Part shown: positions 41,994 to 60,810 of the stretch, in pieces
Numbering within the stretch: position 1 is the first letter of the stretch
Layout: the number at the start of each line of letters is the position of its first letter
Translations under genes and position numbers: made by a program
Origin: Nitrososphaeria archaeon
GTDB taxonomy: Archaea > Thermoproteota > Nitrososphaeria > JACIWG01
NCBI GenBank assembly: GCA_050011875.1
Contig: JBEKIG010000004.1
Span: forward strand, 1 to 64,000
DNA: 64,000 nucleotides
Direction of reading: 5' to 3'
The notes under the pieces: generated by a model
What the model was told of the DNA's origin: nothing
Databases searched by the model: none
Seen by the model: only the letters and a program-made list of their open reading frames with translations

Positions 41994-44594
41994 ATGGCAG
42001 ATGACCAAGAGATTCTGTCTCTCGGCGTTGACGACGTTTTAGCTCGGCTGAAGACATCCCGGTCTGGGCTTTCCTCACAGGAAGTTCAGAGCCGCATTGC
42101 AACGTACGGACCGAACGAGCTGGCTAAGAAGCAGAAACGCACCGGGCTTATTGAGATTCTGTACCACCTGAGAAATCCACTCGTGTTGATCCTCCTGATT
42201 GCGGGTTTAGTCTCCGGGTTTGTAGGAGACATAACAGACGCGGTCATAATTTTCACAATCGTGCTTCTCAGCATCGTTCTTGACGTGTATCAAGAATCCA
42301 AAGCTCAAAACGCCGCCGACGCACTCAAAGAAAGGGTCACCACAAAAGCAACAGTTCTCAGAAACGGCACCAAACAAGAAGTGAAACTTTCCGAAATCGT
42401 ACCAGGTGACATAGTCTATCTCATCGCAGGAGACCTCGTTCCCGCCGATTCCAGATTAATCGACGCAAAGGACTTGAACCTCAACCAGTCAGCATTAACA
42501 GGAGAAGCCTTTCCAGTAGAAAAGAACGCTGCCCCGCTTTCAGCTAGCACGTCCGAACTGACCAGCTGGAACAACTACGTATTCATGGGAACCTCAGTGG
42601 TCAGCGGAACCGGAACCGCCGTCGTGGCAAAGACCGGAAGCTTAACGGAATACGGAAAAATCGCCAAAGACCTCGTGGCCAAGACGCCTGAAACCGAATT
42701 CGAAAAAGGGCTTCGCCGATTCGGAGCCTTAATGACCGAAGTCACTCTTTTCCTCGTAGTTTTCGTCTTTTTTGTAAACGCATTTTTCTTTTCAGGCAGC
42801 CGCAGCATTCTGCAATCCCTGCTTTTCTCAGTGGCTCTTGCCGTGGGCTTAACGCCGGAGCTTCTGCCCATGATAATGTCCATCAACCTATCCAGAGGCG
42901 CCGTGGCAATGTCTAAAAAAGGCGTAATCGTGAAACGGCTGGCCTCAATTTCAAACTTCGGCAACATGGACGTTTTATGCACGGACAAAACCGGCACGCT
43001 CACAGAGAACAAGCTCACACTAAGCGAATACGAGGACCTGGAAGGAAAAGAAGCCCCAAAAGTGCTCATGTACGCTTACTTTAACAGCGTTTTTGAAGCA
43101 GGACTGAAAAGCTCTCTAGACGACGCCATGATTCAGTATAAGCAGTTCGACGTCACTGGCGTCCAGAAAATTGACGAAGTGCCCTTTGACTTCATCCGAA
43201 AACGCGTTTCAGTAGTGGCCGAGTACGAAGGACAAAGACTCCTAATCTCCAAAGGAGCCCCTGAAGAAATCCTCAAAATCTGCACCTACTGCGAAACTGA
43301 CGAAAACCTAACCGATCTAACAAACGTTTACCAAGCCAAGTTTGAGCAAAAATACAACGCACTCAGCGCTGAAGGATACAGGGTTCTAGCCGTCGCATAC
43401 AAGAAAGTCAAAGACGACAAAACACACTACACAATCACCGACGAAACCGACATGATCTTTCTAGGTTTCCTGTCTTTCCTTGACCCACCTAAAGAAAGCG
43501 CGAAAGAATCCATCCGTTTACTGGCCAGAGACGGCGTAGAACTCAAAATCGTCACCGGCGACAACGAACTAGTCACAAAAACAACCTGCGAACAACTGGG
43601 CTTCAACATAACAGGAGTCATCCTCGGAAACGACATCGCCCAACTCCAAAACGACGCCCTAGCCCGAGTCGTAGAGGAAAACAACATTTTCGCCCGCGTA
43701 AACCCCGCTCAAAAAGACAGAGTAATCAACGCCCTAAGAACCAACGGACACGTAGTAGGCTACATGGGAGACGGCATCAACGACGCCCCCTCCCTGAAAA
43801 CGGCAGACGTAAGCATATCAGTAGAAAACGCCGTTGACGTCGCCAAAGAATCCGCCGACCTCATACTCCTGCAGCCTGACTTAACCGTGCTCGATCAAGG
43901 CGTTCTGGAAGGCCGCAAAACCTTTGGCAACACCATGAAATACATCATGATGGGCGTCAGCTCAAACTTCGGCACAATGTTCAGCGTAGCCGGAGCCTCC
44001 CTGTTCCTAAACTTCCTACCCATGACAGCTATCCAAATTCTCCTAAACAACCTCCTATACGATCTTTCCGAAGCAACCATACCAACAGACAACGTAGACG
44101 AAGAATACATCGAAAAACCCAAAAAACTAGACATCTCATACATAAGAAGGTTCATGATGACCATGGGCCCCGTAAGCTCTATATTTGACTTCCTGACCTT
44201 CTTTTTGATGCTGGAAATCTTCAAAGCAGCAGTTCCCGTTTTCCAAACCGCATGGTTCGTAGAATCTCTTGTAACACAAACACTTGTGGTTTTCGTGTTA
44301 AGAACCAGAAAAACTCCATTCTACAAGAGCAAACCCGGGAAATTTTTGACGATAAGCAGCCTATCCGTCGCGGCGGTCGCCTTCATAATTCCCTACACGC
44401 CCCTTGCCACCATATTCAATTTTTCGCCTCCCCCACTAGCGTTCTACCCAGCCCTAGCAGGACTAATAGTCGCCTACCTTCTCCTAGTTGAGGTCGTCAA
44501 GAAATGGTTCCAAAAACATAACGCTTACCGCCTGGAACAAATCTATGCCCCGAAAAAAACAAAACCGGCCGACCAAACAACCAATAAGCTTTAA
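41994..44594 (+). CDS. mgtA: Magnesium-translocating P-type ATPase
   Basis: LTGE, TPELLP, DKTGT, PFDF, GDGINDAP, NLLYD; start moved to ATG 41994. Confidence 0.95.
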   Translation: MADDQEILSLGVDDVLARLKTSRSGLSSQEVQSRIATYGPNELAKKQKRTGLIEILYHLRNPLVLILLIAGLVSGFVGDITDAVIIFTIVLLSIVLDVYQESKAQNAADALKERVTTKATVLRNGTKQEVKLSEIVPGDIVYLIAGDLVPADSRLIDAKDLNLNQSALTGEAFPVEKNAAPLSASTSELTSWNNYVFMGTSVVSGTGTAVVAKTGSLTEYGKIAKDLVAKTPETEFEKGLRRFGALMTEVTLFLVVFVFFVNAFFFSGSRSILQSLLFSVALAVGLTPELLPMIMSINLSRGAVAMSKKGVIVKRLASISNFGNMDVLCTDKTGTLTENKLTLSEYEDLEGKEAPKVLMYAYFNSVFEAGLKSSLDDAMIQYKQFDVTGVQKIDEVPFDFIRKRVSVVAEYEGQRLLISKGAPEEILKICTYCETDENLTDLTNVYQAKFEQKYNALSAEGYRVLAVAYKKVKDDKTHYTITDETDMIFLGFLSFLDPPKESAKESIRLLARDGVELKIVTGDNELVTKTTCEQLGFNITGVILGNDIAQLQNDALARVVEENNIFARVNPAQKDRVINALRTNGHVVGYMGDGINDAPSLKTADVSISVENAVDVAKESADLILLQPDLTVLDQGVLEGRKTFGNTMKYIMMGVSSNFGTMFSVAGASLFLNFLPMTAIQILLNNLLYDLSEATIPTDNVDEEYIEKPKKLDISYIRRFMMTMGPVSSIFDFLTFFLMLEIFKAAVPVFQTAWFVESLVTQTLVVFVLRTRKTPFYKSKPGKFLTISSLSVAAVAFIIPYTPLATIFNFSPPPLAFYPALAGLIVAYLLLVEVVKKWFQKHNAYRLEQIYAPKKTKPADQTTNKL

Positions 44595-48856: not shown

Positions 48857-48921
48857 GATTTCAGCTTTAATTTACTTGTAAATAATGAACAGAGAAGAAT
48901 TGGTGCGGGCCCGGTGAGATT
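48857..48921 (-). repeat. Inverted copy of the tRNA-Arg 3' end plus about 50 bp of downstream flank (att-like)
   Basis: Reverse complement matches 55641-55706 at 58/66 positions by hand alignment. Confidence 0.85.
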
Positions 48922-49170: not shown

Positions 49171-50019
49171 ATGAAGTTTAAGTATTTAGTCCCTTACATC
49201 GTTATTACCGTATTCATATCTCAATTCGGTAAGGATTCGCTCAACTACTCATCGCCATTTTTCATGATGGGATTGAGATACTTGATAGCGGGCTCATTGT
49301 TGCTATTAATTTCGAGACGTTTTCTGTTTAATAGGGATTTAATAATTCTGTCGTTGCTTTCGGCAACAAGTACTGTCCTGTGGGCATACGGACTCGAATA
49401 CGTATCTTTTTCAGATTCAACCGTACTAAGTTACACAATGCCACTAATAACGATCTTCACCTCATGGGCACTGTTAAAGGAAAAAGGGACGCTCACCGAA
49501 GTAATAGGTGCCGTGATAGGTTTTTCAGGACTCGTAATCTTCTCAATACCTCTACTGACAGGTTTCCTTCTATTAGGTTCTCTACTAACCCTCGTTAACG
49601 CAGTTTTCTGGTCACTTTATTCAGTGTATTTCAGAAAAATGAAGGAAAGCAACCCAATCTCAGTCGTAGGCTCCCAGTTCATTCTGGGTTCGCTCTTCAT
49701 GCTGGTCCTTTCTCCAATTAATTTCAAGCTCAGTTTTACAAACGGATTCGTCATCGACCTACTTTACCTTTCAATCATAGGAGGAGCTATACAGTTCCTC
49801 TTATGGAACCTGATGATAAGAGGAGAAAAAATAAACATAGTCACGACTTCGGTTTTCGCAGTTCCAGCTCTCACTGTGATTGTACAAGCCTTGGAAACAC
49901 TAACGATCCCATCTGCACTGTCCATAATTGGTATTGCAATAATGTTCATAGGCATATATATTTCCCAGAGTGTAAACAAACCAAAAATCCCCAACAAGGG
50001 ATTGGCGTCGCAATCCTAG
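49171..50019 (+). CDS. DMT/EamA family transporter
   Basis: About 10 TM helices in two repeats; LRYLIAG, LLKEK. Confidence 0.92.
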   Translation: MKFKYLVPYIVITVFISQFGKDSLNYSSPFFMMGLRYLIAGSLLLLISRRFLFNRDLIILSLLSATSTVLWAYGLEYVSFSDSTVLSYTMPLITIFTSWALLKEKGTLTEVIGAVIGFSGLVIFSIPLLTGFLLLGSLLTLVNAVFWSLYSVYFRKMKESNPISVVGSQFILGSLFMLVLSPINFKLSFTNGFVIDLLYLSIIGGAIQFLLWNLMIRGEKINIVTTSVFAVPALTVIVQALETLTIPSALSIIGIAIMFIGIYISQSVNKPKIPNKGLASQS

Positions 50020-50334
50020 TTGGTTTGACGATGTCATCAAACTGAATGCCATAACAAAGAAACTTTCGCCAAAAAGAAAACTAGTTGTCGCAGTACTCTT
50101 AAATGATGAGGAAAATAAACTAATTCTTAGCAGGATAAGGGAAACAGAAAAGTAAGGAACGGAATCGTAATAGTAACTTTACATAATCGTACTCATCTGT
50201 AATAAGGCGATTTTAGACCTGCATAGAGTCGCAAGAATAGAAGCCAAACAAGGATTTGAATGATATTTGAATGATATCCACAGTTTCCTCATACTGTGAG
50301 GTGGCCATAAAGGACAATAAAAGATCGTTTCATT

Positions 50335-51513
50335 TCATTGAAGCGGTTTGCCACACTCGGGACAGAACTTCGTTGGGGAAGTTATCGCTGCGCCACAGTT
50401 CGGGCATGTCTTTCCCTGGCTCTGTTGAGCCGTCTGAGTGCCGCAGTTTGGACAGAACTTTGCGCCAGCTTGAAGAGGAGAACCGCATTGGGAGCAGAAC
50501 AGGCCTTTCTTTGTCTGGCTTGCTGGTTGTGCTTGGCTGGCCCCGCAGCTGGGACAGAAAGAGCTGTTTACTGGAATTAGTGCCCCACAGTTTGAGCAGG
50601 ACTTTGTTGGAGGTTGCGCCATCCCGCCCATCATTTGGCCGCCGACCGCGTATCCCATGCCAGCACCTGCGCCCAGCCCCACACCTATCCCTGCTCCCAC
50701 GCCAGCTGCTCCTGAGGGGTTCTTGGCCGCGTCGACCATGGCCTGTCCTGCTTGATATTGCATATAATTCACACCCAGAACCTGTAACTGAGAGCGGGTG
50801 TCGATCGCCTTCTGAACTTCGTCCGGCAGGCTAATTGTCAAGCCCGAAATCTTGTTTATCTCTACGCCATATTGCCCGAAGTTGTCGGGAGCAGTCGCGA
50901 GCACAACCTGTTCTATATTCGTGAGGTTTGCAGCTAAGTCGGTAACCTTTAGTCCCTGTGATTTCATCTTACCCATCCCGTTGTATACAAGGATAACCAT
51001 CTGCTCCTTCAGCCGTGATTCTACGTCTTCTGAGGTCTCGGCGTTGAAAGTGCCAACAAACTGGTTGATGAAGTTCTCAGGAGAGGAGACCCTCCATCTA
51101 TATTCTCCAAAGACGCGGAGGTTGACGATCCCGAAAGTTGGGTCCGTGAACTGGTACGGCTGTGTGCTGCCGAACTTGCCATCCATGTACCTCTTCTGGA
51201 TGTAGAAGACCTCGGCCTGCTGTACAACGCCGGTGAAGAATTTAAGTAGATTCCCGACTATGGGCGCGTTGAAGTCGGTAAGCGCATATCTGTTTGGCTG
51301 ATCGAAGTATGTCAGCACCTTACCATCCCTGTAAAAGGCCGCAATCTCGTCCTCCCTTACGACTATGTTATCGTTCAACCTGATGTTCCTCGGAACCTTC
51401 CACATCACGTTATTCTGCTTGTACTGGTCCTCCCAGTTTACGGTTATCGAACCCACAACGCTACCACCAGTGGGAGGTATATCGCTCGATTTCTTCTTGA
51501 ATAAGCTACTCAC
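50335..51513 (-). CDS. SPFH/band-7 domain protein with C-terminal double zinc ribbons
   Basis: IVVREDEIAAFYRDGK, LRVFGEY, ISLPDEVQKAID; three CxxC..FCxxCG pairs. Confidence 0.92.
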   Translation of the reverse strand: MSSLFKKKSSDIPPTGGSVVGSITVNWEDQYKQNNVMWKVPRNIRLNDNIVVREDEIAAFYRDGKVLTYFDQPNRYALTDFNAPIVGNLLKFFTGVVQQAEVFYIQKRYMDGKFGSTQPYQFTDPTFGIVNLRVFGEYRWRVSSPENFINQFVGTFNAETSEDVESRLKEQMVILVYNGMGKMKSQGLKVTDLAANLTNIEQVVLATAPDNFGQYGVEINKISGLTISLPDEVQKAIDTRSQLQVLGVNYMQYQAGQAMVDAAKNPSGAAGVGAGIGVGLGAGAGMGYAVGGQMMGGMAQPPTKSCSNCGALIPVNSSFCPSCGASQAQPASQTKKGLFCSQCGSPLQAGAKFCPNCGTQTAQQSQGKTCPNCGAAITSPTKFCPECGKPLQ

Positions 51514-51523
51514 TCCAATTCAC

Positions 51524-52078
51524 CTACGTCAGCAATATACCCTCTATCGCTTTCATCCTTGCTTCCCACTTTTGCTTGAAGTCCACAATGGCAGCGTTGA
51601 CTTTCGACAGCCCGGTTTGGATCGAAGCAGGAGCTGAGGTGTCGTAAACGAGACTTGATGGAGAGGTAATCGCTAGGAGCTGCACCGCTGAACTTACAAA
51701 GTTGTAATCGTAATCATAAAGTTTGTTGAGCCTATCCTCGTTGATGCTTATCGTAGCAACGAAGCCGGAGTAGCCCTGCTGGGCGTGTCTCACCTCACCG
51801 CTCAGTTGCTGAACCTGCGAGATCAACGAACCAACCGATGTCAGATTCGTATAATCACCAGCAGTAACCATTTGCTTCCTCACATCCTCTAGGTTTCCCT
51901 TCGTTTGGTTGAGCTTGTCCGCTACCTGGTTGCGCAGGAGGTTGTCAGAGACGCGAAGATCCTCTAACGTCCTGTAGCCTTTGAGCCCTGGAACCAGTAG
52001 TTCAAGCTTCTTCTGAGGACCCCTACTTTCCTCAACCTGTTCTCTTATGTCTGGATTATCTTGTGACAATTTGATCAT
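51524..52078 (-). CDS. Helical/coiled-coil protein co-transcribed with the SPFH gene
   Basis: PGLKGY...DNLLR, GYSGF, LYDYD; 10-bp gap to the SPFH gene. Confidence 0.75.
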   Translation of the reverse strand: MIKLSQDNPDIREQVEESRGPQKKLELLVPGLKGYRTLEDLRVSDNLLRNQVADKLNQTKGNLEDVRKQMVTAGDYTNLTSVGSLISQVQQLSGEVRHAQQGYSGFVATISINEDRLNKLYDYDYNFVSSAVQLLAITSPSSLVYDTSAPASIQTGLSKVNAAIVDFKQKWEARMKAIEGILLT

Positions 52079-52341
52079 CTATAAACCTATTTCGAAAGTT
52101 TCAAAAGCTATAGCCTAGTATAAATATCTTTTGCTCATCCCCTTATAGTTATGCATTTGCATAGAAAATCTACCGATCAGTCCTACTCATGCCTTACCGC
52201 CAGCTCTGTTCAGTATCATAATAGCTTAGTGGGGTGGATGTCTTTGCTTGGCTCAGAAGATGCCAGAGAGCACTATCCTGATGCTAAGATCATCCTGCGG
52301 ATGCTAAAACCGGACAGGCAGTAGGAAGGAGAGCTACCTCG

Positions 52342-53406
52342 ATGGAGCGAAAAGGAGTCAGCTACGACGTAGGACGCGTGATGGGGTTCAATTGGCGCCC
52401 CGTCTTTGATCCAAAGATCGTCCATCGCGAGCTTGAAATCATCAAGGATGACCTGCACTGCAACGCTGTGAGGATCTGCGGCCGCGACATCGAACGGGCG
52501 ACCGCCTGCGCCCAAGCTGCGATGGAACAGGGACTGGAAGTCTGGCTCTCACCAGAGCTTTGGGACAAGAGCCCGCCGGCGACCCTTGAGTACATCACGA
52601 AGGCCGCATCCGCGGCAGAGACCCTACGAAAGCATTGGCCGGAGAGGATAGTGTTCAGCATCGGCTCCGAGCTGACACTCTTCATACAGGGGATTGTAGA
52701 AGGAAGAAACTTCACGGCCCGTCTGTCGAACCCTAGCCTTATTCCCCGCGTGAAGGCGGGCGAGCACAACAAGCCGCTAAACGACTTCCTGACCAAAGCG
52801 AACGCGGCCGTTAGATCTGTGTTTCACGGTAAAGTAACCTACGCTTCCTTGGTCTGGGAGGCGGTCGACTGGAACCTTTTCGACTACGTAGGAGTCGACC
52901 ATTACCGGACGACCAAGATTGAGGACAAGTACGTTGGGATGTTGAAACCTTCGTTCTCTCACGGGAAACCGGTGGTCATAACAGAGTTTGGCTACGCTAC
53001 GACCCACGGAGGCATAGGCGAGGAAGGCTTCTTGGGCTCGTCAGGCCTCGGTGGAAACATAATCGACCTGAAGTCGCAGTTCCTCCACTACAAAGTACCG
53101 GTCTTGGGTCAGTTCGTCCGACCACACCTCAACGGCGACCATGTTCGCGACGAGGCGTGGCAAGCTCACAAGCTCATCGAAACGTTGGGAATACTGGACA
53201 GTGCGGGGGTTGACGGAGCGTTCGTGTTCCAGTTTATTTCACAAATCACTCCCTACAGCGATGATCCTCATTACGACCTAGATATGGCGAGCTCCAGCTT
53301 GGTGAAATACTACGAGCACGGAAGACACGGCACAACCTATCCAGATATGACGTGGGAGCCTAAGGAGTCCTTCAGGGCCGTCGCCGACTATTACGCCAAT
53401 CATTAG
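52342..53406 (+). CDS. Glycoside-hydrolase-like TIM-barrel protein
   Basis: KGVSYDVG, DLHCNAVRI, GSEL, VITEFG, WEPK; GC-richer than its flanks. Confidence 0.8.
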   Translation: MERKGVSYDVGRVMGFNWRPVFDPKIVHRELEIIKDDLHCNAVRICGRDIERATACAQAAMEQGLEVWLSPELWDKSPPATLEYITKAASAAETLRKHWPERIVFSIGSELTLFIQGIVEGRNFTARLSNPSLIPRVKAGEHNKPLNDFLTKANAAVRSVFHGKVTYASLVWEAVDWNLFDYVGVDHYRTTKIEDKYVGMLKPSFSHGKPVVITEFGYATTHGGIGEEGFLGSSGLGGNIIDLKSQFLHYKVPVLGQFVRPHLNGDHVRDEAWQAHKLIETLGILDSAGVDGAFVFQFISQITPYSDDPHYDLDMASSSLVKYYEHGRHGTTYPDMTWEPKESFRAVADYYANH

Positions 53407-53697
53407 GAGTTGCTGATACTGCTTTGCAAAGGCCTCAATTCCCTGTGCGATTGAATCAGGAGACGGTGATTGGTGGCGTCTTCTAGATATCATCGCTGGA
53501 GTCCTTCGTCGGACAGGCTGTAGCGCAGTCAGCTTGAAAGGGAACTCAGTACAGCCTGATTTGCAACGCCATCAGCGATCTTGGTGTAACGTAACGGTTT
53601 GCTGGACGGTCAATAACGGTGGTGTTTCGGGTTACTATTGCTCCCCCGTGCACAATAGATGATAACATATCACGGCGCTCAACGAAAGGATTAGCGC

Positions 53698-54093
53698 CTA
53701 AATATTTAAAATACCTAAAAGGTCCACTTTAGACTCTTGCGATAATCTTTGAATAAGATCCGATAACTCCTTACCTTTTCTTTTCAGTTCCCTCTTGGAT
53801 ACAGTATACTTCATTGGGCAGATATCATCGACACTCATTCCTTTCCCTACCTGATAGATCACCGGATAAATGTAGCATCCCAGAGGCCTGTCCTTATAGA
53901 CCTTACAACTATGATTCTGGATATTATAGAAAAAACAGTGCCCATGATCATTCCGCAGACAAAAAAAACCTTGCCTATCACGAAATACGAACTTCTGACA
54001 ATCATAACCTAACCTTTCCAATCGTTTAACGTCTTCAAATGAGAGCATCATCTTGGTTTTCTGACAACATATACCGCAAAAGGAACATTTCAT
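53698..54093 (-). CDS. YkgJ family cysteine-cluster protein
   Basis: CSFCGICC, CFFY, CKVYKDRPLGCYIYP; start moved to ATG 54093. Confidence 0.88.
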   Translation of the reverse strand: MKCSFCGICCQKTKMMLSFEDVKRLERLGYDCQKFVFRDRQGFFCLRNDHGHCFFYNIQNHSCKVYKDRPLGCYIYPVIYQVGKGMSVDDICPMKYTVSKRELKRKGKELSDLIQRLSQESKVDLLGILNI

Positions 54094-54372
54094 AAAGTGA
54101 TTTAACCCCCCAACCTCCATATTTAACTTTTGAATTTCAGAGGCGGTTGTATCCATAAAATCCTTTTTTATAAATAAAATACAAGCTACTGATCCCATTT
54201 CCTAAGAAAATTTACTGCGTTTTTCTTGGAATGCAATCCCTAAACTAAATGATTTGAACATGGGATCTCTTATTTAGCCTTTAAAATATAAATATATGTT
54301 TGTCCAGTTACTAGACACATTACTTTCAAAAGAGGATAAAAAGATTAAGAAGGTATGAAAAACTAAAACTAG

Positions 54373-54801
54373 TTGATGGACATGAACGTTAAGCTGCAAA
54401 TATTCAAGATGAGAGAAGCAAGTGGAACTTCTTTGGCACAGCGCTATCGCTTTGCAGTAGTTGATCTGGACAGGCCTGAAAAGTATCCATCAAACTTTGT
54501 CTGCATGATGCCAGCTCAAATAGGCTCAGATAAGCATAGCGTTTTTGTTAAGCTTTTTGGAGACAAAAGCATAGAACTGGCCAGTCAACTGTTGACGGAT
54601 GCACTTGAGACTGAGACTGACCTTGAAACTAAAGCTGAAATTGGAAGAAGATTGAAGATAATTAAATCCCCTGATACCAATCAGGTCGAATGCAGTGTTT
54701 GCGGAAAACTGTTCAAACCTACACGAAGGAGAGGGTTCAGGCAGAAAATCTGTCCCGAATGTAAAAACAAAAGGTACGGCAACTATGGACAAAAGTCTTA
54801 A
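54373..54801 (+). CDS. Hypothetical protein with a C-terminal zinc finger
   Basis: YPSNFVC; CSVCGK...ICPEC. Confidence 0.78.
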   Translation: MMDMNVKLQIFKMREASGTSLAQRYRFAVVDLDRPEKYPSNFVCMMPAQIGSDKHSVFVKLFGDKSIELASQLLTDALETETDLETKAEIGRRLKIIKSPDTNQVECSVCGKLFKPTRRRGFRQKICPECKNKRYGNYGQKS

Positions 54802-54916
54802 TAATACTGCCTGCAAATTTTATTTTAAATGAGTATACTGATTAGAAAGGATTCAAACGAAAAGTGAAAGCGTAGTGCATGTTAGTCAGATGGTAATAAA
54901 TTACCAATTTTGATTC

Positions 54917-55111
54917 TTATATAAGATTTAACTCCTTAGCACATTGGAGACAGTGATATTTTCTTGGAGCACCTTTTGAGATGATTGTTTCACCTATGTT
55001 GAAATCTCTTTTACATTTGTAGCATCTTAGACCATATTCCTTCGCATAGTGACGATGTGAAAGCCTCGACATTATTGTTGCCGTTAATTTGATCTTTATA
55101 GTTCCTGTCAT
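54917..55111 (-). CDS. Small zinc-finger protein
   Basis: CYKC...YHCLQC in a 64-aa ORF with an upstream TATA-like sequence. Confidence 0.65.
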   Translation of the reverse strand: MTGTIKIKLTATIMSRLSHRHYAKEYGLRCYKCKRDFNIGETIISKGAPRKYHCLQCAKELNLI

Positions 55112-55581
55112 TTAGGTCAGAGATTTCGTGAAGAATGCTTTATCGCCGTACTTATACTTATAATGGTAGTTATATTTTTGTAGTTTTGCCATTACATTTT
55201 CTTTTTTTAGATACATCTTCCTGTTTTACGGAACAATTAATTTTGAATTCTGTTCCTTTAACCTTTTTAGAATTTTAACTTGTTATTGTTTTTTTAGTTG
55301 CAGAAAAGTTTAAACTACGTCAACGGCTCTTTTGATTCTTCGACTCCATCGCCTTTCTTGTCCAATTTTTTTGAGGAAAGCTTTGGCTTTCCCTGGACAA
55401 CTCCATACCCTAACAGAACCGGTTCTTATCTAGCAACCTCTTTGATCTGGATTACTCCATATTTATATTTCGAGGCTTCATCCTTTAATATCACCTTGAG
55501 TACCCTGTCCAAAGGACTTTCACCCTTAAGGTTCTCCAGCACCCAATAAAGCTGCCTTCCAGACATGTAATCGATTATGAT

Positions 55582-55656
55582 GGGCTCGTGGCTCAGTCTG
55601 GATAGAGTACAGGCCCTCTAAGCCTGGGGTCGTGGGTTCAAATCCCACCGGGCCCG
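55582..55656 (+). tRNA. tRNA-Arg(TCT), intronless, atypical C33
   Basis: Acceptor GGGCTCG/CGGGCCC, D arm GCTC/GAGT, anticodon arm CAGGC-CCTCTAA-GCCTG, T arm GTGGG-TTCAAAT-CCCAC, discriminator G. Confidence 0.9.
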
Positions 55657-55811
55657 AACCCAATTATTCTCTGTTAATTATTTACCAGTAAATTAATGCT
55701 AAAATCCCACATTAATTGGAAGCATTAGATGGCAAAGATCCAATAAAAATTGGGTCCGGTTCGCTCAATGCACTCACAAACTAACTAAGAAAGACTTTCC
55801 ATCTTTATAGA

Positions 55812-56130
55812 AACTTTACCTATTTTGTTAAGGTTTCCTTTACCTATTTTGTTAAGGAAAAAATGCTGAACAGACTTTGATAAATTCTGTTCAAACAGAT
55901 ATTTTTTAACAAAATTAGTGCTAACCGTCCGCTGACTTGCTCGAACAGATCCCCCTATGTTCAAATGATTATCACTTTGCTCTCATGCAGAGCGCATTTA
56001 ACTTGAGCAGATAAAAAAAGTTAGCGCTAAATATTTTTCCGAAAAATCAGTTGAACAGAACACAATTGCACACAAATGACCTGTTGTAAAACCTTAACAG
56101 ATCCGGTAAAGGTTATTTTAAAGTGAACTT
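55812..56130 (+). repeat. About 319-bp non-coding module, copy 1, with terminal inverted repeats
   Basis: Colinear with 56396-56714; CTTTACC..TGTTAAGG duplicated at the left end and inverted at the right end. Confidence 0.85.
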
Positions 56131-56395
56131 CAAAAAAATGCGTACATCAAAAATAGACAGAAAGAACTTCCGGCTACATGTTCGAGAAGAAGGAGCTATT
56201 CTGAAAAATTGATAAGGGGATCTGAAATAAAAAGCGACAGTACCTTACTTAGATCAAAGGGGCAATCATTTTACTAAACCTTTTTAGCGAACCCCCATAA
56301 GTTGGAGCCTTCTTCCAGTTAAAATCATAGCGATAGGTTTTTGCAAAACTTCCCCTAACGTCAAGCCGGGAACAGCATCTACCTACATTTAACAA

Positions 56396-56714
56396 ACCTT
56401 TACCGATTTTGTTAAGGTTTCCTTTACATATTTTGTCAATGAAAAATCCGCTGATAATCGTGGATAAAGTTTGCTCATGCAGATATTTTTTTGAACAATT
56501 AGCGCAGACGGTCTGCTGATTTGCTCGGACAGATCCCCCTGTGTATTATTTGTTATCATATTGCTCCCATGCAGGACGGTTTTAAGTTGAGCAAACAAAA
56601 ACTGTTTGTGCAAACTTTTTTGTCTAAAAATCAACTGAGCAAACTATTTTTGCACCTAGTTGATTGAACGTTGTGCATTAACAGATTTCGTAAAGGTTCT
56701 TTGATAGTGAACTT
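56396..56714 (+). repeat. About 319-bp non-coding module, copy 2
   Basis: Diverged direct repeat of 55812-56130; shares TTGCTCG.ACAGATCCCCCT, GTAAAGGTT and AGTGAACTT. Confidence 0.85.
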
Positions 56715-56780
56715 GTAACAAAAGGAATGTACGGCCCGTGAGACACTTTGTTTTGATCGACTAACTAGAATTTATGGGAA

Positions 56781-56832
56781 ATGTTCAAAAAGTGGGTTTA
56801 CGGTCATGACCACAGACATTAATTTTGAACAT
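56781..56832 (+). repeat. 52-bp dyad site A
   Basis: ATGTTCAAAA-N12-GTCATGAC-N12-TTTTGAACAT. Confidence 0.92.
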
Positions 56833-57076
56833 TATTGCCTAAAAGGAAGTTATAATTTAGTATCAATTTCTTCTCATTAATTGCGCCACTTACATCCACT
56901 ACACCTATTATAGAAGAGTTAAATTTCTTCCAAATATGCTTTGCCATATCAATAGACGAATGATAGGAAGGTGATTGCAACTACACCAAATATCAGGAAG
57001 AAAAAGAAAATACGACTAAACCAATTATCTGAGGAATTGGAAAACTCATGGTATTGTAGGTTAACTGGACCTTAAA

Positions 57077-57128
57077 ATGTTCAAAAATGGTGACTGCTGT
57101 CATGACCGGGGAAGCAGATTTTGAACAT
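57077..57128 (+). repeat. 52-bp dyad site B
   Basis: ATGTTCAAAA-N12-GTCATGAC-N12-TTTTGAACAT. Confidence 0.92.
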
Positions 57129-57182
57129 AGTTCTCCATTTTAGGTAAAGTTTCCATTTAGATCGTTAACTAACTAAGAAAAA

Positions 57183-57441
57183 AACCTTTACATATAGCGT
57201 AATAATTAATCATCAGAGGCCGTTTAGAATGTTCAAGCCGATCTCCAAACAGGAAAAACGCGCAGCCCTATTATAGCAGATTCCCCAATAAACCCCAGTA
57301 TTCCTTAGGAAAACAGGCATGTTCCTCTATATATAGCAAAAAATTTTTTTTCTGTTTGGTGAACAGACGTTTGAACATTTGAACTTAATTATTACGCTAA
57401 GAGTAAAAGTTAATTTAATTATTACACTACAAGTAAAAGTT
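57183..57441. repeat. Module bounded by 27-bp inverted repeats with a duplicated right end
   Basis: 57183-57209 is inverted relative to 57385-57411 (15 bp perfect); second right-end copy at 57415-57441. Confidence 0.8.
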
Positions 57442-57607
57442 AAACACTAACTAAGTGAACATGCAAAAGGAAGATAAGTCCAAAGAGGAAATGAAGCCCT
57501 ATGGTTCAGGGCTGATGGGCCGGCAGGTGAAGCGATCAAAGAGGAACGAGATAAACCTCCAACCCTCAAAGACAATGCCAGACAGCTAACTTATCACTAG
57601 ACTTTAA

Positions 57608-57658
57608 ATGTTCAAAATGGTGATTACTGTCATGACTGTGGATACAGATTTTGAACAA
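57608..57658 (+). repeat. 51-bp dyad site C
   Basis: ATGTTCAAAA-N11-GTCATGAC-N12-TTTTGAACA. Confidence 0.9.
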
Positions 57659-57881
57659 GACGACCTTAATGTAAAAAATAAGTTTTGTCCGTTATACAAT
57701 GATCTTAATGCTACAAGAAATGTTAAAAAAAATTAGAGTCAGACTTATAGTCGAACAATGTAGAATCCCATTTTAAAATAATAGAATCATTACTTAACTT
57801 CTATAGAATCTTCAATTGGAATATTAATCTAGTTCTCCGAGAATCAATCAAAACCTTTATTGCTTCAAATGCTTAAAAAAA

Positions 57882-58223
57882 TTATTGCGGGTTTGTACAG
57901 CCGTATATCAACCCTGTAAAAATTAAGCCGAAAGCGAATATGCCAAAAGCTAACAAATCAGTGTTTTCTGGTGGATCTACTACAAGACCTTTGTAGCATC
58001 TGCAGAACTCCTTCTGTTTAACGTTTTTTGGTGGGGTCATCCACTTGTTTGTCTCTTCTAAATCTCTGTACACGTAGACTTGCACAGTTCGGGGGTCTAA
58101 ATTGCATACTTCACCCACTTGATTGATAGTGTATTCCTTATCTTTCTCTAAACTTCCTTCTAAACATTTTACGAATTTCTTTATTGGTGGTTCATAAGGT
58201 CCTCTTGACATCATTGAATTCAC
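57882..58223 (-). CDS. Small HTH-like protein with a C-terminal TM helix
   Basis: YTINQVGEVCNLDPRTVQVY; LLAFGIFAFGLIFTGLIYG; upstream TTTA-type TATA. Confidence 0.65.
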   Translation of the reverse strand: MNSMMSRGPYEPPIKKFVKCLEGSLEKDKEYTINQVGEVCNLDPRTVQVYVYRDLEETNKWMTPPKNVKQKEFCRCYKGLVVDPPENTDLLAFGIFAFGLIFTGLIYGCTNPQ

Positions 58224-58375
58224 ACCTAGGTGTAATTTTGTAAATATAATTTAAACTTTTCCTAAGGGCATGTACAGCAATAATATAAACTCCATAATAT
58301 CTTTGGGTTCCGAAAGTAAAACGAACGATAGTGATTCTACTTCACTACCTTTTACTCGAAGGACTTTTGGAAATT

Positions 58376-58427
58376 ATGTTAAGAAAAGGAGAGTGTCGTC
58401 ATGACCGCAGGCAACGATTTTGAACAT
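58376..58427 (+). repeat. 52-bp dyad site D overlapping the topoisomerase start codon
   Basis: ATGTTAAGAA-N12-GTCATGAC-N12-TTTTGAACAT; central ATG = 58401. Confidence 0.88.
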
Positions 58428-60581
58428 GATGATGACATCACGAACAAAATCAGAGCACGGCCACGGATCTACGATTTTTTCACTCTCGATGGCGTGCAGC
58501 GGCTTACCGGGTGCACACCAGAAAAATTCCTCTTGTTCATGTCAAAGGAATTAACCGATAACGCCCTCGATAAACGGAATGTAAAGAATGTCAAGGTCGA
58601 GATCGTTGAAGAAGGCAAAATATTGATTCTGTCAGTATCTGATGACGGAAAACCAACGTTTGATAGTGAATCTCTGACTAAGATCCTAGACTTTGAGAAA
58701 GCGCCCTCCGAGAAAAGAGGAAAAAAGTGTGTAAAAAGAGGAGTACTTGGGAACGCACTACAAAGTTGCTTCGGGATTTCTTATGCAACATTCAACGCAG
58801 ACAACAGACCTGAATACACTGCAGAGGTATGGGGAACCAAAAAATTTTTCATAAAGTTGGATCCCAGTAAGACATCATTTCAAGAAGAACCACGGGAAAA
58901 CGATGGCTTTACAGTCATTCGATTCAAACTACCAACTGGCAATTATGTTTCACCTTTTAGAATTTTAAGAACTATCGCCCTGCTTAACCTCTATGTCACT
59001 ATCTCTTACAAGGATAAAGAATTAGAACACACTTCCGCAGCTTTGGAATGTATCAAACCTCCCATACAAAACGAAGTTGATATACATTGCTATAGTTATG
59101 CAGAATTTAGCGACTTTGTCGATGAGATACAGCATAGTACAGTGGAGCAGTGTGTGACGATCTTCAAAGGCCTAAAGAACCGTTTCTACGCAAAAAAGGT
59201 CCTCGAGGATGCAGGTATTAAGCCTGGAACGAGGCTTTCAGATCTTAGCTCTAAAGAACGTCAATGCCTTTTCAGTACGATAAAAAAGGCTGCGAAGACC
59301 CTAAAAGCCATCCAACTACCTGTAGTCGGCAAAGATTCATTCGAGCAGCATGGTATTGTGAACTACTTTGTAAAGCGTGGTACATTGAGCGATAAAGAGG
59401 GGAGAATCGTGCCCTATGTTGTCGAGGCCGCCTCCTTCGAAGACAAGGATGAAGAGATTTTTGAGACAGTAAACTTCACGACATCGATACATCATCCCTT
59501 CACCATGTACGTTTTCACTGAAGGAGAAAAAAGAGTAAAATTTAGTGATCTCACGAAGGACAAAGGGCTAAACGTGCTTATCCACCTAGTGTGTCCAGCG
59601 ATCACATGGCTCAGCGCAAGCAAGGGCGAAATGGATATTCACCCCTTTCAGGATGCGATATTTTCAGCAATCAGACATGTCTGCAGGCAGAACAAGATGA
59701 CAGGATTTGATTCAGAAACTTTGATTTCACTTACCAACAATGTTATGAGTTCCTACCCGACATTTAACTTTACGCTCAGGCAGGTCTTCTACCTTCTGGT
59801 GTCTCATCACGGTTACCCTAACGAGAAACAAGCCTACAACAAGCTAGGTAAAGCTCTTGTCAAGGCAAGACAAGAAGGGACAGTAGATGCGGATAGAATT
59901 CTGGACTTGAGCAGGCCAGAGTACATAAATAACAGCTCGTATCAATCGTTCCTAGAGCGGGCCCGATCAGACTTCAAGACACTGATTAACGACTTTGATT
60001 TAGATAAATGGAGTCTACAACCGATATACTGTGAAACATGGATAGAAAAGGAGGCCCTCTCCAGAGTCATTGCACCGGTCTGCAAGAAATATAGTGTAAA
60101 CGAAATTGTTGGACGTGGCTATTCATCCTACACACAAATTCGAAGAGCTGTCAAAAGACTTCCAGAGGATAAGAAGGTAATCATACTCTATATTGGCGAC
60201 TTTGACCCGCCTGGACTTCACATAGAAGAGAAGCTAAAAGAAAGGCTCCTTGATGAAGCAAGTAGAAGAGGTAAACACTTACAACTGGATGTGAGGAGGG
60301 TCGCCTTAACCTATGAGCAGATTCAACAGTATCACCTTCCTGCCTCTCCCTTGAAAAAGTCAGGCCAAAAGCGTCAAGAATACCTAGAAAAATATGGAAG
60401 TGACGTATGGGAGGTTGATGCCTTAAGTCCTGAAGTCCTTATAAAAACTTTAGAGGAAGAAATTAGAAGTTTAATCGATTGGGAGATCTGGAACAAAAAA
60501 GAGGAAGAGGTCGAATACTTTAGGGGACTACTAAGAGAAGGCTTGGGACGATTTCTAGACGAACTGAACGCTTTCGAATGA
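58401..60581 (+). CDS. Fused type IIB topoisomerase (TopoVI B+A; Topo VIII-like)
   Basis: GHKL KELTDNALD, SDDG, RGVLGNAL; WHD TLRQVFY; TOPRIM WIEKEAL, GRGYSS, GDFDPPG. Confidence 0.88.
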   Translation: MTAGNDFEHDDDITNKIRARPRIYDFFTLDGVQRLTGCTPEKFLLFMSKELTDNALDKRNVKNVKVEIVEEGKILILSVSDDGKPTFDSESLTKILDFEKAPSEKRGKKCVKRGVLGNALQSCFGISYATFNADNRPEYTAEVWGTKKFFIKLDPSKTSFQEEPRENDGFTVIRFKLPTGNYVSPFRILRTIALLNLYVTISYKDKELEHTSAALECIKPPIQNEVDIHCYSYAEFSDFVDEIQHSTVEQCVTIFKGLKNRFYAKKVLEDAGIKPGTRLSDLSSKERQCLFSTIKKAAKTLKAIQLPVVGKDSFEQHGIVNYFVKRGTLSDKEGRIVPYVVEAASFEDKDEEIFETVNFTTSIHHPFTMYVFTEGEKRVKFSDLTKDKGLNVLIHLVCPAITWLSASKGEMDIHPFQDAIFSAIRHVCRQNKMTGFDSETLISLTNNVMSSYPTFNFTLRQVFYLLVSHHGYPNEKQAYNKLGKALVKARQEGTVDADRILDLSRPEYINNSSYQSFLERARSDFKTLINDFDLDKWSLQPIYCETWIEKEALSRVIAPVCKKYSVNEIVGRGYSSYTQIRRAVKRLPEDKKVIILYIGDFDPPGLHIEEKLKERLLDEASRRGKHLQLDVRRVALTYEQIQQYHLPASPLKKSGQKRQEYLEKYGSDVWEVDALSPEVLIKTLEEEIRSLIDWEIWNKKEEEVEYFRGLLREGLGRFLDELNAFE

Positions 60582-60810
60582 TGAGGCTTCTGGCAGATGC
60601 TCGTACATTCTCGTTACGATTTCATATGATGCATTGATTAAATTTTGCCATAATACCTAAAGGTCATATAGTTGGGTCGATCAGGTGGCCACCCTTTTTT
60701 GTTCAACGACAAGTTTAGAGAACACCCTATTTCATAATTATATCAGTTTGGAAAATCGTGTCCCTTAATCACACAGAATCTTAAAATTATACGCAATATG
60801 ATCGCTTTGA

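What the first reader, a model, noticed from the sequence alone, without database searches (positions are those of the whole stretch)
56781..58427. Array of four symmetric 52-bp att-like sites, each carrying an RBS and ATG; the last supplies the start of a Topo VIII-like gene
Seen: four co-oriented sites (56781, 57077, 57608, 58376) share the geometry ATGTTCAAAA-N12-GTCATGAC-N12-TTTTGAACAT (one left spacer is N11). Arms, central palindrome and spacer lengths are conserved while spacer sequences vary. Centre-to-centre segments are 296, 530 and 769 bp of unrelated DNA; one holds a 113-aa gene and one a TIR module. The left spacer carries an SD-like motif (GGTGA in B and C, AGGAG in D) 8-9 nt before the central ATG, and the right half encodes MTxxx(D/N)FE(H/Q). 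In D this is the first 9 codons of the topoisomerase; in A, B and C it begins ORFs of 24, 13 and 34 aa. Known: large serine recombinase att sites are about 50-bp dyads with distal arms and a central crossover dinucleotide. The sites do not match integron attC (RYYYAAC...GTTRRRY) or 28-bp Xer dif sites. Inference: an integron-like cassette or accretion array in which crossover at the central AT joins a cargo ORF to a translation start or swaps its upstream region. The recombinase would be encoded elsewhere.
Basis: partly seen in the sequence, partly recalled or inferred. Interest (0 to 1): 0.9.

Follow-up and report, generated by a model that had tools for sequence, protein, structure and literature searches.

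The report
Conserved dyad sites before topoisomerase-like gene
Four copies of a 52-base mirror-symmetric DNA site sit in front of, and overlap the start of, an unusual topoisomerase-like gene in a soil archaeon; they look like conserved protein-binding sites in otherwise freely drifting DNA, not like a cassette array carrying genes.

Summary
Four co-oriented 51-52-bp dyad sites (10-nt arm, 11-12 nt, 8-nt palindrome, 12 nt, 10-nt arm) lie at 56781, 57077, 57608 and 58376. None is expected by chance, and there are no other copies in the 2.64-Mb genome.

The only other holder found is a sister species (G009, a Nitrososphaeria MAG). It has three syntenic sites: A', one site standing for B and C, and D'. 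The 530-bp B-C segment is therefore an indel bounded by two sites.

Between the species, arms and centre show 0 changes in 74 positions (D's left arm excluded). Spacers show 11 in 60, and the DNA between sites drifts at the neutral rate (about 12%). The short ORFs starting at A and C have pN/pS near or above 1. No recombinase is nearby, and no partner site was found.

The gene itself lies in a divergence island (pS 0.67, against 0.12 next door) whose borders are not at the sites. It carries the Mini-A signature box fused to a Top6B-like ATPase, so it is not canonical Topo VIII.

Best reading (0.45): a locus-specific array of protein-binding operator-like sites. The cassette and att reading is weakened but not excluded (0.2).

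The parts
56781..56832 (+). Site A: a complete dyad (both arms and the centre perfect) with no TATA-like or SD-like motif.
   Evidence: The ortholog A' in G009 differs at 3 spacer positions only.
57077..57128 (+). Site B: a complete dyad, with a TATA-like hexamer at -30 and GGTGA at -13 from the central ATG.
   Evidence: Its upstream flank is orthologous to that of the single BC' site of G009.
57608..57658 (+). Site C: a dyad with an 11-nt left spacer. The last base of the right arm is A. A TATA-like hexamer lies at -29 and GGTGA at -13.
   Evidence: Its downstream flank is orthologous to that of BC' in G009.
58376..58427 (+). Site D: centre and right arm are perfect and the left arm has 2 mismatches. 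The central ATG is the start codon of the 726-aa gene. AGGAG lies at -14.
   Evidence: D' in G009 keeps centre plus right arm 18/18, inside a region that is about 70% identical.
57129..57607 (.). The B-C segment, present here and absent at the syntenic place in G009. It holds a MITE, and a 61-nt stretch resembling the 3' end of a Zn-finger/HNH-like gene on contig C5.
57164..57460 (.).
   Evidence: I2, D8; an 80% copy at C1:171680-171958; 3 copies in G009.
57882..58223 (-). 113-aa ORF P0002, with an HTH-like N part (a weak lead) and a C-terminal hydrophobic helix. It is divergent from site D.
   Evidence: Only the hydrophobic helix is conserved in G009. No family hit.
58401..60581 (+). Single-chain type IIB topoisomerase-like gene: a Top6B-like GHKL ATPase with transducer, fused to an A module that carries the Mini-A signature box.
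   Evidence: Motif definitions come from PMC7671362.
57894..60430 (.). Divergence island between the two species. The part before D is unalignable and the gene is 63-83% identical. It is flanked by 88% (left) and 88-100% (right) identity.
55581..55657 (+). tRNA-Arg(TCT), followed by a multi-copy 66-nt repeat and MITE-like tandem elements. This is the left neighbour of the array.

Best explanation
The four sites are copies of one locus-specific, dyad-symmetric protein-binding site. I read it as an operator-type cis element, recognised as two half-sites. Each half-site has a proximal contact (half of the 8-bp palindrome) and a distal contact (the 10-bp arm two helical turns away), and the spacers are not read.

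The proximal copy (D) overlaps the start codon and the immediately upstream region of a single-chain type IIB topoisomerase-like gene, and most likely controls its expression. Copies A-C are auxiliary sites in otherwise neutral DNA. They could act by cooperative binding, by looping, or as decoy promoters.

The binding protein is unknown. The only conserved local candidate is the gene's own product.

Shown: the sites, their uniqueness, their conservation against a neutral background, and the non-coding nature of the DNA between them. Inferred: protein binding, the regulatory role and the identity of the binder. The B-C indel is read as recombination between two neighbouring copies.
For: 1. Selection on the conserved positions.
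- Between G000 and G009, arms plus centre show 0 changes in 74 positions (D's left arm left out). Spacers show 11 in 60 (read).
- The surrounding DNA is 88.6% and 87.7% identical. That equals the synonymous divergence of the neighbouring Trm5 gene (pS 0.12).
- My hand estimate for 0 changes in the 56 non-coding positions of A and B/C is 0.88^56, about 8e-4.
- Between non-orthologous sites, arms plus centre are 89% identical and spacers 46%.

2. Constraint at the DNA level in D. The five third-codon positions inside the centre and right arm are unchanged, while the gene's pS is 0.65-0.67. The encoded residues 1-12 are disordered in the model (pLDDT 32 for residues 1-10).

3. A long-term link to this gene's start. 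The peptide imprint of centre, 12-nt spacer and right arm (M-T, three free residues, D/N-F-E-H/Q) is present in P0005 (54% identity), P0007 (51%) and G009's own N-terminal piece. It is partly present in P0009 and P0018. In total the motif regex matched 6 of the 37 proteins examined.

4. Site A has neither a TATA-like nor an SD-like motif yet is perfectly kept. The function is therefore not translation initiation.

5. No RNA or hairpin signal: 0 compensatory changes in 12 predicted pairs, and D's arm changes break pairs. Rfam found only the tRNA.

6. The sites occur nowhere else, as expected for a dedicated local factor.

7. B, C and BC' carry a TATA-like hexamer at -29 to -31. That is the genome's own peak for leaderless starts. 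PMC6028130 (passages read) puts the archaeal promoter box about 26 nt from leaderless gene starts.
Against: - No binding protein is identified. The only nearby HTH-like ORF (P0002) is not conserved in G009.
- There are no transcription data. No RNA run holds the locus.
- D, the one site at a real gene, has the weakest left arm (2 mismatches here and 2 in G009, at different positions). It did not match my TATA set.
- Only 3 of the 6 sites scored have a TATA-like hexamer. D' was not scored.
- An operator array does not by itself explain why unrelated DNA lies between the copies. Nor does it explain why similarity between B and C stops about 15 nt upstream and at the right arm.
- Everything rests on two genomes.
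- Several homologs without the full imprint still begin with an acidic-aromatic motif. Some protein-level constraint on the right arm in D therefore cannot be excluded.
Confidence: 0.45

Rival explanations
1. One reading: the sites are recombination (att-like) sites of a site-specific recombinase encoded elsewhere. The array grew by successive insertion of circular segments at the gene's 5' end, and the segments are decayed remains of those insertions.
For: - The B-C segment is an indel bounded by two sites, and G009 has one site with B's left flank and C's right flank.
- The positions that tell B from C put the switch within a 13-nt interval that includes the central palindrome (my reading).
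- The B-C segment holds foreign-looking remnants: a MITE, and 61 nt that are about 79% identical to the 3' end of a gene on contig C5.
- The geometry (distal arms, a central 2-nt dyad, about 50 bp) resembles large serine recombinase sites. This is recalled knowledge.
- The locus abuts a tRNA-Arg with multi-copy att-like repeats.
- G000 has two serine-recombinase-domain ORFs on contig C29.
Against: - No serine recombinase domain was found in G009 (94% complete), which keeps three sites under constraint.
- No partner site was found anywhere. This covers both genomes, genome contigs and metagenome contigs and viral contigs.
- The conserved core, central AT included, is palindromic, so it sets no polarity.
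- The array has been static apart from one event since the species split.
- The inter-site DNA is neutral and non-coding.
- Relic att sites should decay, yet the arms and centres show 0 changes in 74 positions.
- The large allele replacement at the locus does not end at the sites.
- One indel between 86%-identical repeats needs no recombinase.
Confidence: 0.2
2. The sites are catalytic or loading targets of the adjacent enzyme itself. In this view a two-fold symmetric type IIB topoisomerase-like dimer sits on the dyad, the A modules lie on the central palindrome, and the B-like modules lie on the distal arms. The purpose would be site-specific cleavage, decatenation, replication start or recombination of a now decayed mobile element.
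For: - The site and this gene family's start stay linked down to 51-54% protein identity.
- The gene is the only conserved local protein.
- The enzyme keeps the catalytic Tyr motif, the Toprim E and the DxDxxG motif (with definitions).
- Its N part folds like Topo VI-B (E 1.8e-19).
- In PMC13040014 (passages read), the Topo VI holoenzyme is two-fold symmetric on a bent duplex. 74 bp were modelled, with distal contacts by the Top6B H2TH domain and stalk. A 52-bp dyad fits inside that.
- The central AT fits a 2-nt stagger. That stagger is recalled for type IIB enzymes, not tested here.
Against: - Nothing here tests binding or cleavage.
- G009's gene is split by a frameshift, yet its sites are kept. 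The split could be an assembly error.
- The standalone Mini-A genes of 21 other Nitrososphaeria loci have no start-centred dyad.
Confidence: 0.15
3. The sites are functionless relics: decayed 5' ends left by tandem duplication or replacement of the gene.
For: - The right half of every site reads like the gene's first 9 codons.
- C's ORF resembles D's for about 4 more codons (my reading).
- The gene region has been replaced at least once.
Against: - No trace of the gene was found in six-frame translations of the inter-site DNA. Of 370 pieces, the best E-value was 1.4.
- Arms and centre are unchanged while the neighbouring DNA drifts at about 12%.
- The left arm is non-coding yet mirrors the right arm perfectly in A, B and C.
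Confidence: 0.07
4. An RNA or single-strand DNA hairpin element, such as a translational control stem that sequesters the start codon.
For: The arms could pair as a 10-bp stem.
Against: - The consensus energy is only -3.48 kcal/mol, with 0 compensatory pairs of 12.
- The changes in D and D' break pairs.
- The spacers do not pair.
- If transcripts are leaderless, the left arm is not transcribed.
- There is no Rfam match.
Confidence: 0.03

Closest known systems
Multi-operator arrays of repressors, and inverted-repeat operators at the promoters of plasmid or phage replication and regulatory genes (recalled knowledge)
   Same: There are several copies of one dyad site. The contact positions are conserved and the spacers are free. 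One copy overlaps the regulated gene's start region and the others lie upstream. The sites are restricted to one locus.
   Different: The site is long (52 bp) and bipartite, with an extra central palindrome. The copies lie 296-769 bp apart in unrelated DNA. The start codon sits exactly on the dyad axis. No repressor is known.
Large serine recombinase attachment sites
   Same: Both are imperfect dyads of about 50 bp, with conserved distal arms and a central dinucleotide.
   Different: - The central dinucleotide and the whole conserved core are palindromic.
- No cognate recombinase was found in one of the two genomes.
- No partner site was found anywhere.
Integron attI/attC cassette arrays
   Same: The topology is similar: a gene for a DNA-cleaving enzyme, a divergent primary site at its 5' end, and an upstream array of similar sites separated by unrelated segments. 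One segment is present or absent between relatives.
   Different: - There is no IntI-type integrase nearby.
- The segments are neutral non-coding DNA.
- There is a single locus, and the array is almost static.
Topo VI holoenzyme on bent G-segment DNA (PMC13040014)
   Same: A two-fold symmetric complex with central contacts by the A subunits and distal contacts by the B subunits, over tens of base pairs.
   Different: Topo VI is not reported there as sequence-specific. Whether the protein here touches these sites is untested.
Topo VIII and Mini-A subfamilies of type IIB topoisomerases (PMC7671362)
   Same: The gene has the fused B-plus-A architecture of Topo VIII. It also has the catalytic Tyr, E and DxDxxG motifs that all three subfamilies share.
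   Different: Its T2BI box is of the Mini-A kind, and it lacks the Topo VIII arginine three residues after the catalytic Tyr. Unlike the Mini-A proteins described, it has a Bergerat-fold N-terminal half.

Membership tests
Large serine recombinase att site | Imperfect dyad of about 40-50 bp with conserved distal arms | tested here: met
Large serine recombinase att site | Asymmetric central crossover dinucleotide that sets polarity (feature recalled, not from a call) | tested here: not met
   The central AT lies in a perfect 8-bp palindrome in all 7 sites.
Large serine recombinase att site | Cognate serine recombinase in the same genome or element | tested here: not met
   PF00239 gave 2 hits on G000 contig C29 (not this contig) and 0 in G009 (94% complete), which keeps the sites.
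Large serine recombinase att site | Partner site (attP/attB) on a mobile element or elsewhere | tested here: not met
   No further site was found (both genomes; genome and metagenome collections, exact pattern) or (viral contigs).
Integron | IntI-type tyrosine recombinase next to the array | tested here: not met
   the PF00589 hits lie only on other contigs (G000 C6, C16 twice, C36); no such domain in the neighbouring ORFs.
Integron | Cassettes that each carry a gene | tested here: not met
   pN/pS is 0.86 for the A ORF and 1.12 for the small A-B ORF, and the C ORF has 9 nonsynonymous and 0 synonymous changes; divergence is at the neutral level; no gene remnant.
Integron | Cassette content differs between relatives | tested here: inconclusive
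   One indel is bounded by sites B and C. Only two genomes are available, and homologous recombination would explain it equally well.
   The geometry is 10-12-8-12-10.
Topo VIII (PMC7671362) | B-like ATPase and A-like cleavage module in one chain | tested here: met
   (Topo VI-B chains at E 1.8e-19; Top6A Toprim by Pfam and NCBIfam).
Topo VIII (PMC7671362) | T2BI box RVELNAM | tested here: not met
   P0001 has VWEVDAL at residues 669-675. W-E-x-D is kept in 14 of the 15 aligned sequences; the 15th lacks the region. Definition.
Topo VIII (PMC7671362) | [quoted passage not shown] | tested here: not met
   P0001 reads R-Q-V-F-Y464-L-L-V. Definition.
Topo VIII (PMC7671362) | Catalytic Tyr in RxxY/FY, Toprim E and DxDxxG, and a G2 box GxxGxG or GxxGxA | tested here: met
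   R460..F463-Y464, E549, D600-x-D602-x-x-G605 and G114-V-L-G-N-A119. Definitions.
Mini-A (PMC7671362) | T2BI box xWELDAL | tested here: met
   VWEVDAL in P0001 and VWELDAL in most homologs. The about 300-aa relatives in other Nitrososphaeria match residues ~425-720.
Mini-A (PMC7671362) | Short A-only protein with no Bergerat-fold partner | tested here: not met
   P0001 has a 430-aa Top6B-like N-terminal half. The paper found no 'Mini-B' near Mini-A genes.
Archaeal operator / transcription-factor site | Dyad site with purifying selection on the contact positions | tested here: met
Archaeal operator / transcription-factor site | Overlap with the promoter or transcription start of the regulated gene | tested here: inconclusive
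   A TATA-like hexamer lies at -29 to -31 in 3 of the 6 sites scored (B, C, BC'). D has none by my set. There are no TSS data.
Archaeal operator / transcription-factor site | A cognate DNA-binding protein | not testable with these tools
   P0002 is only a weak HTH-like lead and is not conserved.

The most novel reading that the evidence does not exclude
The adjacent single-chain type IIB topoisomerase-like enzyme (a Top6B-like ATPase fused to a Mini-A-type cleavage module) is site-specific. It would sit as a two-fold symmetric dimer on these 52-bp dyads and cut at the central AT with a 2-nt stagger. In this reading the array is its set of target sites. The B-C indel would then be the footprint of break-and-rejoin between two sites: a topoisomerase-derived site-specific recombination or replication-start system, laid out like an integron (enzyme gene, primary site at its 5' end, upstream array).
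Probability: 0.1. Interest if true: 0.9.

Novelty: new variant of a known kind. Interest (0 to 1): 0.55.

Why it matters
If the sites are operators, this is a clean natural example of a long bipartite dyad operator in Nitrososphaeria. Almost no transcription-factor sites are known in that group. It would control a DNA-cleaving enzyme whose biology is unknown.

If the enzyme itself reads the sites, it would be the first sequence-specific type IIB topoisomerase relative. That would give the Mini-A subfamily both a partner ATPase domain and a DNA target, and so make its function directly testable.

Either way, the work shows that a striking 'cassette array' pattern can be made of conserved sites in neutral DNA.

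Tried and rejected
- Decayed paralogs. A profile of 15 homologs was run against 370 six-frame pieces of the inter-site DNA of both species. The best E-value was 1.4. tblastx of 54800-58400 against the genome found only the tRNA and MITE families.
- RNA element. RNAalifold gave no covariation, and Rfam found only the tRNA.
- A tiny MITE of 52 bp. There is no target-site duplication at the flanks (my reading), and there are only 4 copies.
- A general transcription-factor motif. Arm pairs without the centre gave 6 other hits, against 9 in the everted control.
- A serine recombinase link. No site lies near the C29 genes. The genome-wide searches found none.
- Viral or plasmid partner sites. The exact pattern found nothing in viral contigs. 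The half-site pattern gave 6 hits, all with a left arm of 3-4 of 10, which is chance. Relatives of the gene in viral contigs are only 22-32% identical.
- The same feature in standalone Mini-A genes. None of 21 loci has an exceptional start-centred dyad; the best scored 14 of 26. One of these loci, L027, is from the unpublished genome G326. The tallies include the unpublished genomes G282 and G326.
- The second GHKL-Toprim paralog on C11 has no similar dyad upstream.
- Reads. The look-up of sequencing runs listed no RNA holder. Read laying had only contigs. No joint lies at any site. One contig of run X3 bridges site B unchanged. X1 and X2 may be the source sample. Parts without cover say nothing.
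- The literature search for the three motif strings returned only unrelated papers among the 15 listed.
- Supplements of papers were not consulted. Supplementary tables of PMC6563490 and PMC7671362 might list this kind of element or fused Mini-A forms.
Full report
**Observation**

The region holds four co-oriented sites at 56781, 57077, 57608 and 58376. Each has a 10-nt arm, a 12-nt spacer (11 in C), an 8-nt central palindrome, a 12-nt spacer and the inverted arm.
- The window is contig C4:1-64000 of a 2.64-Mb, 119-contig genome. That genome holds no other copy.
- Of all 24 occurrences of the central 8-mer, only these four have matching arms. They score 18-20 of 20, and the next best scores 12.
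- Allowing 3 mismatches or dropping the centre (6 other hits against 9 in an everted control) adds nothing.
- The ORFs of 24, 13 and 34 aa, the 113-aa gene and the TIR module (a MITE) are as described.
- D's central ATG is the first possible start of a 726-aa ORF.
- Site A has no SD-like motif. A, B and C also share about 15 nt upstream of the left arm.

**Who else has it**

The organism is a Nitrososphaeria archaeon, by the record title of the sister genome's contig.
- In its order, 2 of 10 genomes have the site: G000 itself and its only congener, G009.
- Exact-pattern scans found only G009's contig, an 8.7-kb contig 100% identical to the window, and four unrelated chance or hairpin hits. These scans covered 185,579 species genomes and the JGI metagenomes. 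Viral contigs gave nothing.
- Six half-site hits in viral contigs are chance.

**Comparison with G009 (L010)**

The locus is syntenic and has three sites: A', one site here called BC', and D'.
- Window 56690-57127 aligns to L010 10197-10635, and window 57596-57893 aligns to L010 10572-10870. BC' therefore has B's upstream flank and C's downstream flank.
- The 479-bp B-C interior is missing. Only its MITE part has copies elsewhere in G009.
- The positions that distinguish B from C place the switch within 13 nt that include the central palindrome (my reading).
B and C are 86% identical over 57 nt, so homologous or slipped recombination explains it equally well.

**Selection**

The DNA from before A to after C is 88.6% and 87.7% identical between the species. 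This matches the synonymous divergence of the neighbouring Trm5 gene (pS 0.12), so it drifts neutrally.
- Against that background, arms plus centre show 0 changes in 74 positions (D's left arm excluded), and spacers show 11 in 60.
- Between non-orthologous sites, arms plus centre are 89% identical and spacers 46%.
- The peptides starting at the sites are not constrained. pN/pS is 0.86 for the A ORF. The C ORF has 9 nonsynonymous and 0 synonymous changes. A small ORF in the A-B segment has pN/pS of 1.12.
- No remnant of the gene, or of any other gene family, lies between the sites. The exception is a 61-nt stretch resembling the 3' end of a gene on C5.

The array is therefore a set of conserved sites in neutral DNA, not a set of cargo cassettes.

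**The gene and its island**

The gene's G009 counterpart is only 68% identical in protein, with pS of 0.65-0.67. It is split by a frameshift, which may be an assembly error.
- Identity is 63-83% from D to about 60430. It then jumps to 88-100% for the last 150 nt of the gene and the genes beyond.
- To the left, homology stops at 57893. That is the 3' end of the 113-aa ORF, whose HTH-like part has no counterpart in G009.
- This 2.5-kb island looks like replacement by a divergent allele. Its borders are not at the dyad sites.
- Inside it, D's centre and right arm are 18/18 identical, including five third-codon positions. The encoded first 12 residues are disordered in the model.
- The same peptide imprint, with the same spacing, heads homologs of 51-54% identity (P0005, P0007). 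It is partly kept in P0009 and P0018. The regex matched 6 of 37 proteins examined.
- Standalone Mini-A genes in 21 other loci have no such dyad.

**What the gene is**

Pfam and NCBIfam see a Top6A Toprim domain. Homologs carry HATPase_c. The model (pLDDT 84) matches Topo VI-B chains at E 1.8e-19.

I applied the criteria of PMC7671362 (sections 13, 14 and 16 read).
- The protein has the catalytic RxxFY motif, E plus DxDxxG, and a GxxGxA G2 box.
- Its T2BI box is the Mini-A kind (VWEVDAL), not RVELNAM.
- It lacks the Topo VIII arginine after the tyrosine.

It is therefore a Top6B-like ATPase fused to a Mini-A-type module. That paper found no B-like partner for Mini-A.

**Promoter signals**

In this genome, TATA-like hexamers upstream of 1272 long ORFs peak at -31/-30 and at -42 to -37. 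SD-like pentamers peak at -12/-11.
- B, C and BC' have a TATA-like hexamer at -30, -29 and -31.
- A, A' and D have none by my set, and D' was not scored.
- PMC6028130 (passages read) places the archaeal box about 26 nt from leaderless starts. It classes 11 of 11 Thaumarchaeota as leaderless-rich.

Some sites therefore look like leaderless promoters, but not all.

**Recombinases and context**

Serine-recombinase domains occur only on G000 contig C29, and none was found in G009. Tyrosine recombinases lie on other contigs.

The array's left neighbour is tRNA-Arg(TCT). It is followed by a 66-nt repeat present in several copies in both genomes, and by MITE-like tandems. In G009 only the tRNA's 3' fragment adjoins the array, and the intact tRNA is 74 kb away. 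The locus thus sits at an integration hot spot and may be the remains of a mobile element.

**Verdict**

The pattern is real, rare and under selection. The best reading is a locus-specific protein-binding (operator-like) array tied to the start of this gene (0.45).

The cassette or att reading keeps one supporting event, but it fails on recombinase, partner sites, cargo and polarity (0.2).

A bolder reading is that the enzyme itself acts on the dyads. This fits the two-fold symmetric, 74-bp bent DNA seen on Topo VI (PMC13040014, passages read), but it is untested (0.1-0.15).

Relic and RNA readings are disfavoured.

Noticed in passing
window 58401-60581: The 726-aa protein is a Top6B-like GHKL ATPase fused to an A module with the Mini-A signature box (VWEVDAL), not the Topo VIII box. 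PMC7671362 reports that no Bergerat-fold partner was found for Mini-A. About 15 full-length homologs (41-54% identical) exist in metagenomes and Nitrososphaerota MAGs.
   Followed up: partly
window 57894-60430: A divergence island between the two congeneric genomes. The gene's pS is 0.65-0.67, against 0.12 for the adjacent Trm5 gene. Identity returns sharply to 88-100% at about 60432, inside the gene's 3' end. This looks like allele replacement by homologous recombination.
   Followed up: yes
window 55581-55710; also 48857-48921 (- strand): tRNA-Arg(TCT) is followed by a 66-nt sequence (the last 12 nt of the tRNA plus 54 nt). Further copies lie on C1, C11, C21, C30 and, inverted, at 48857-48921. 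G009 also has several copies. In G009 the intact tRNA with its upstream flank lies 74 kb from the 3' fragment that adjoins the array.
   Followed up: partly
window 55800-56722: Two tandem copies (584-nt spacing, 73-86% identical) of a MITE-like element with inverted ends. Related copies lie on C7, C10, C6 and other contigs. One of them again follows a second tRNA-Arg copy on C7.
   Followed up: partly
window 57528-57589: A 61-nt stretch of the B-C segment is about 79% identical to the 3' end of a Cys-rich (Zn-finger/HNH-like) ORF at G000:C5:56899-56957, and to a place in G009 (C11:21512-21571). It may be a gene-end remnant.
   Followed up: partly
G000:C11:~119600-121500 (L058): A second, distant GHKL-Toprim paralog (open frame of 829 aa, 33% identical over residues 10-130). 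It lies about 3.7 kb from another copy of the tRNA-Arg-end repeat. It has no similar dyad upstream.
   Followed up: partly
G000:C29:1521-2997: Two adjacent ORFs with serine-recombinase (Resolvase) domains, one in a 570-aa open frame. None was found in G009.
   Followed up: no
L010 11782-13979 (G009): The G009 counterpart of the gene is split into a 156-aa frame and a 595-aa frame by a frameshift near codon 150. Public protein sets list the two pieces separately (P0036, P0004). It may be a real pseudogene or an assembly error.
   Followed up: partly
window 50000-58000: A jump in composition: GC is 0.49-0.50 at 50-54 kb and 0.35-0.36 at 54-58 kb.
   Followed up: no
window 42460-42554: ARAGORN calls a 95-nt tRNA-Ser with the unusual anticodon ACT on the - strand.
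   Followed up: no
window ~58408-58460 and ~60716-60768: Two further imperfect dyads score 16 of 26. One lies just after site D and reuses its right arm. The other lies in the gap between the gene's end and Trm5.
   Followed up: no
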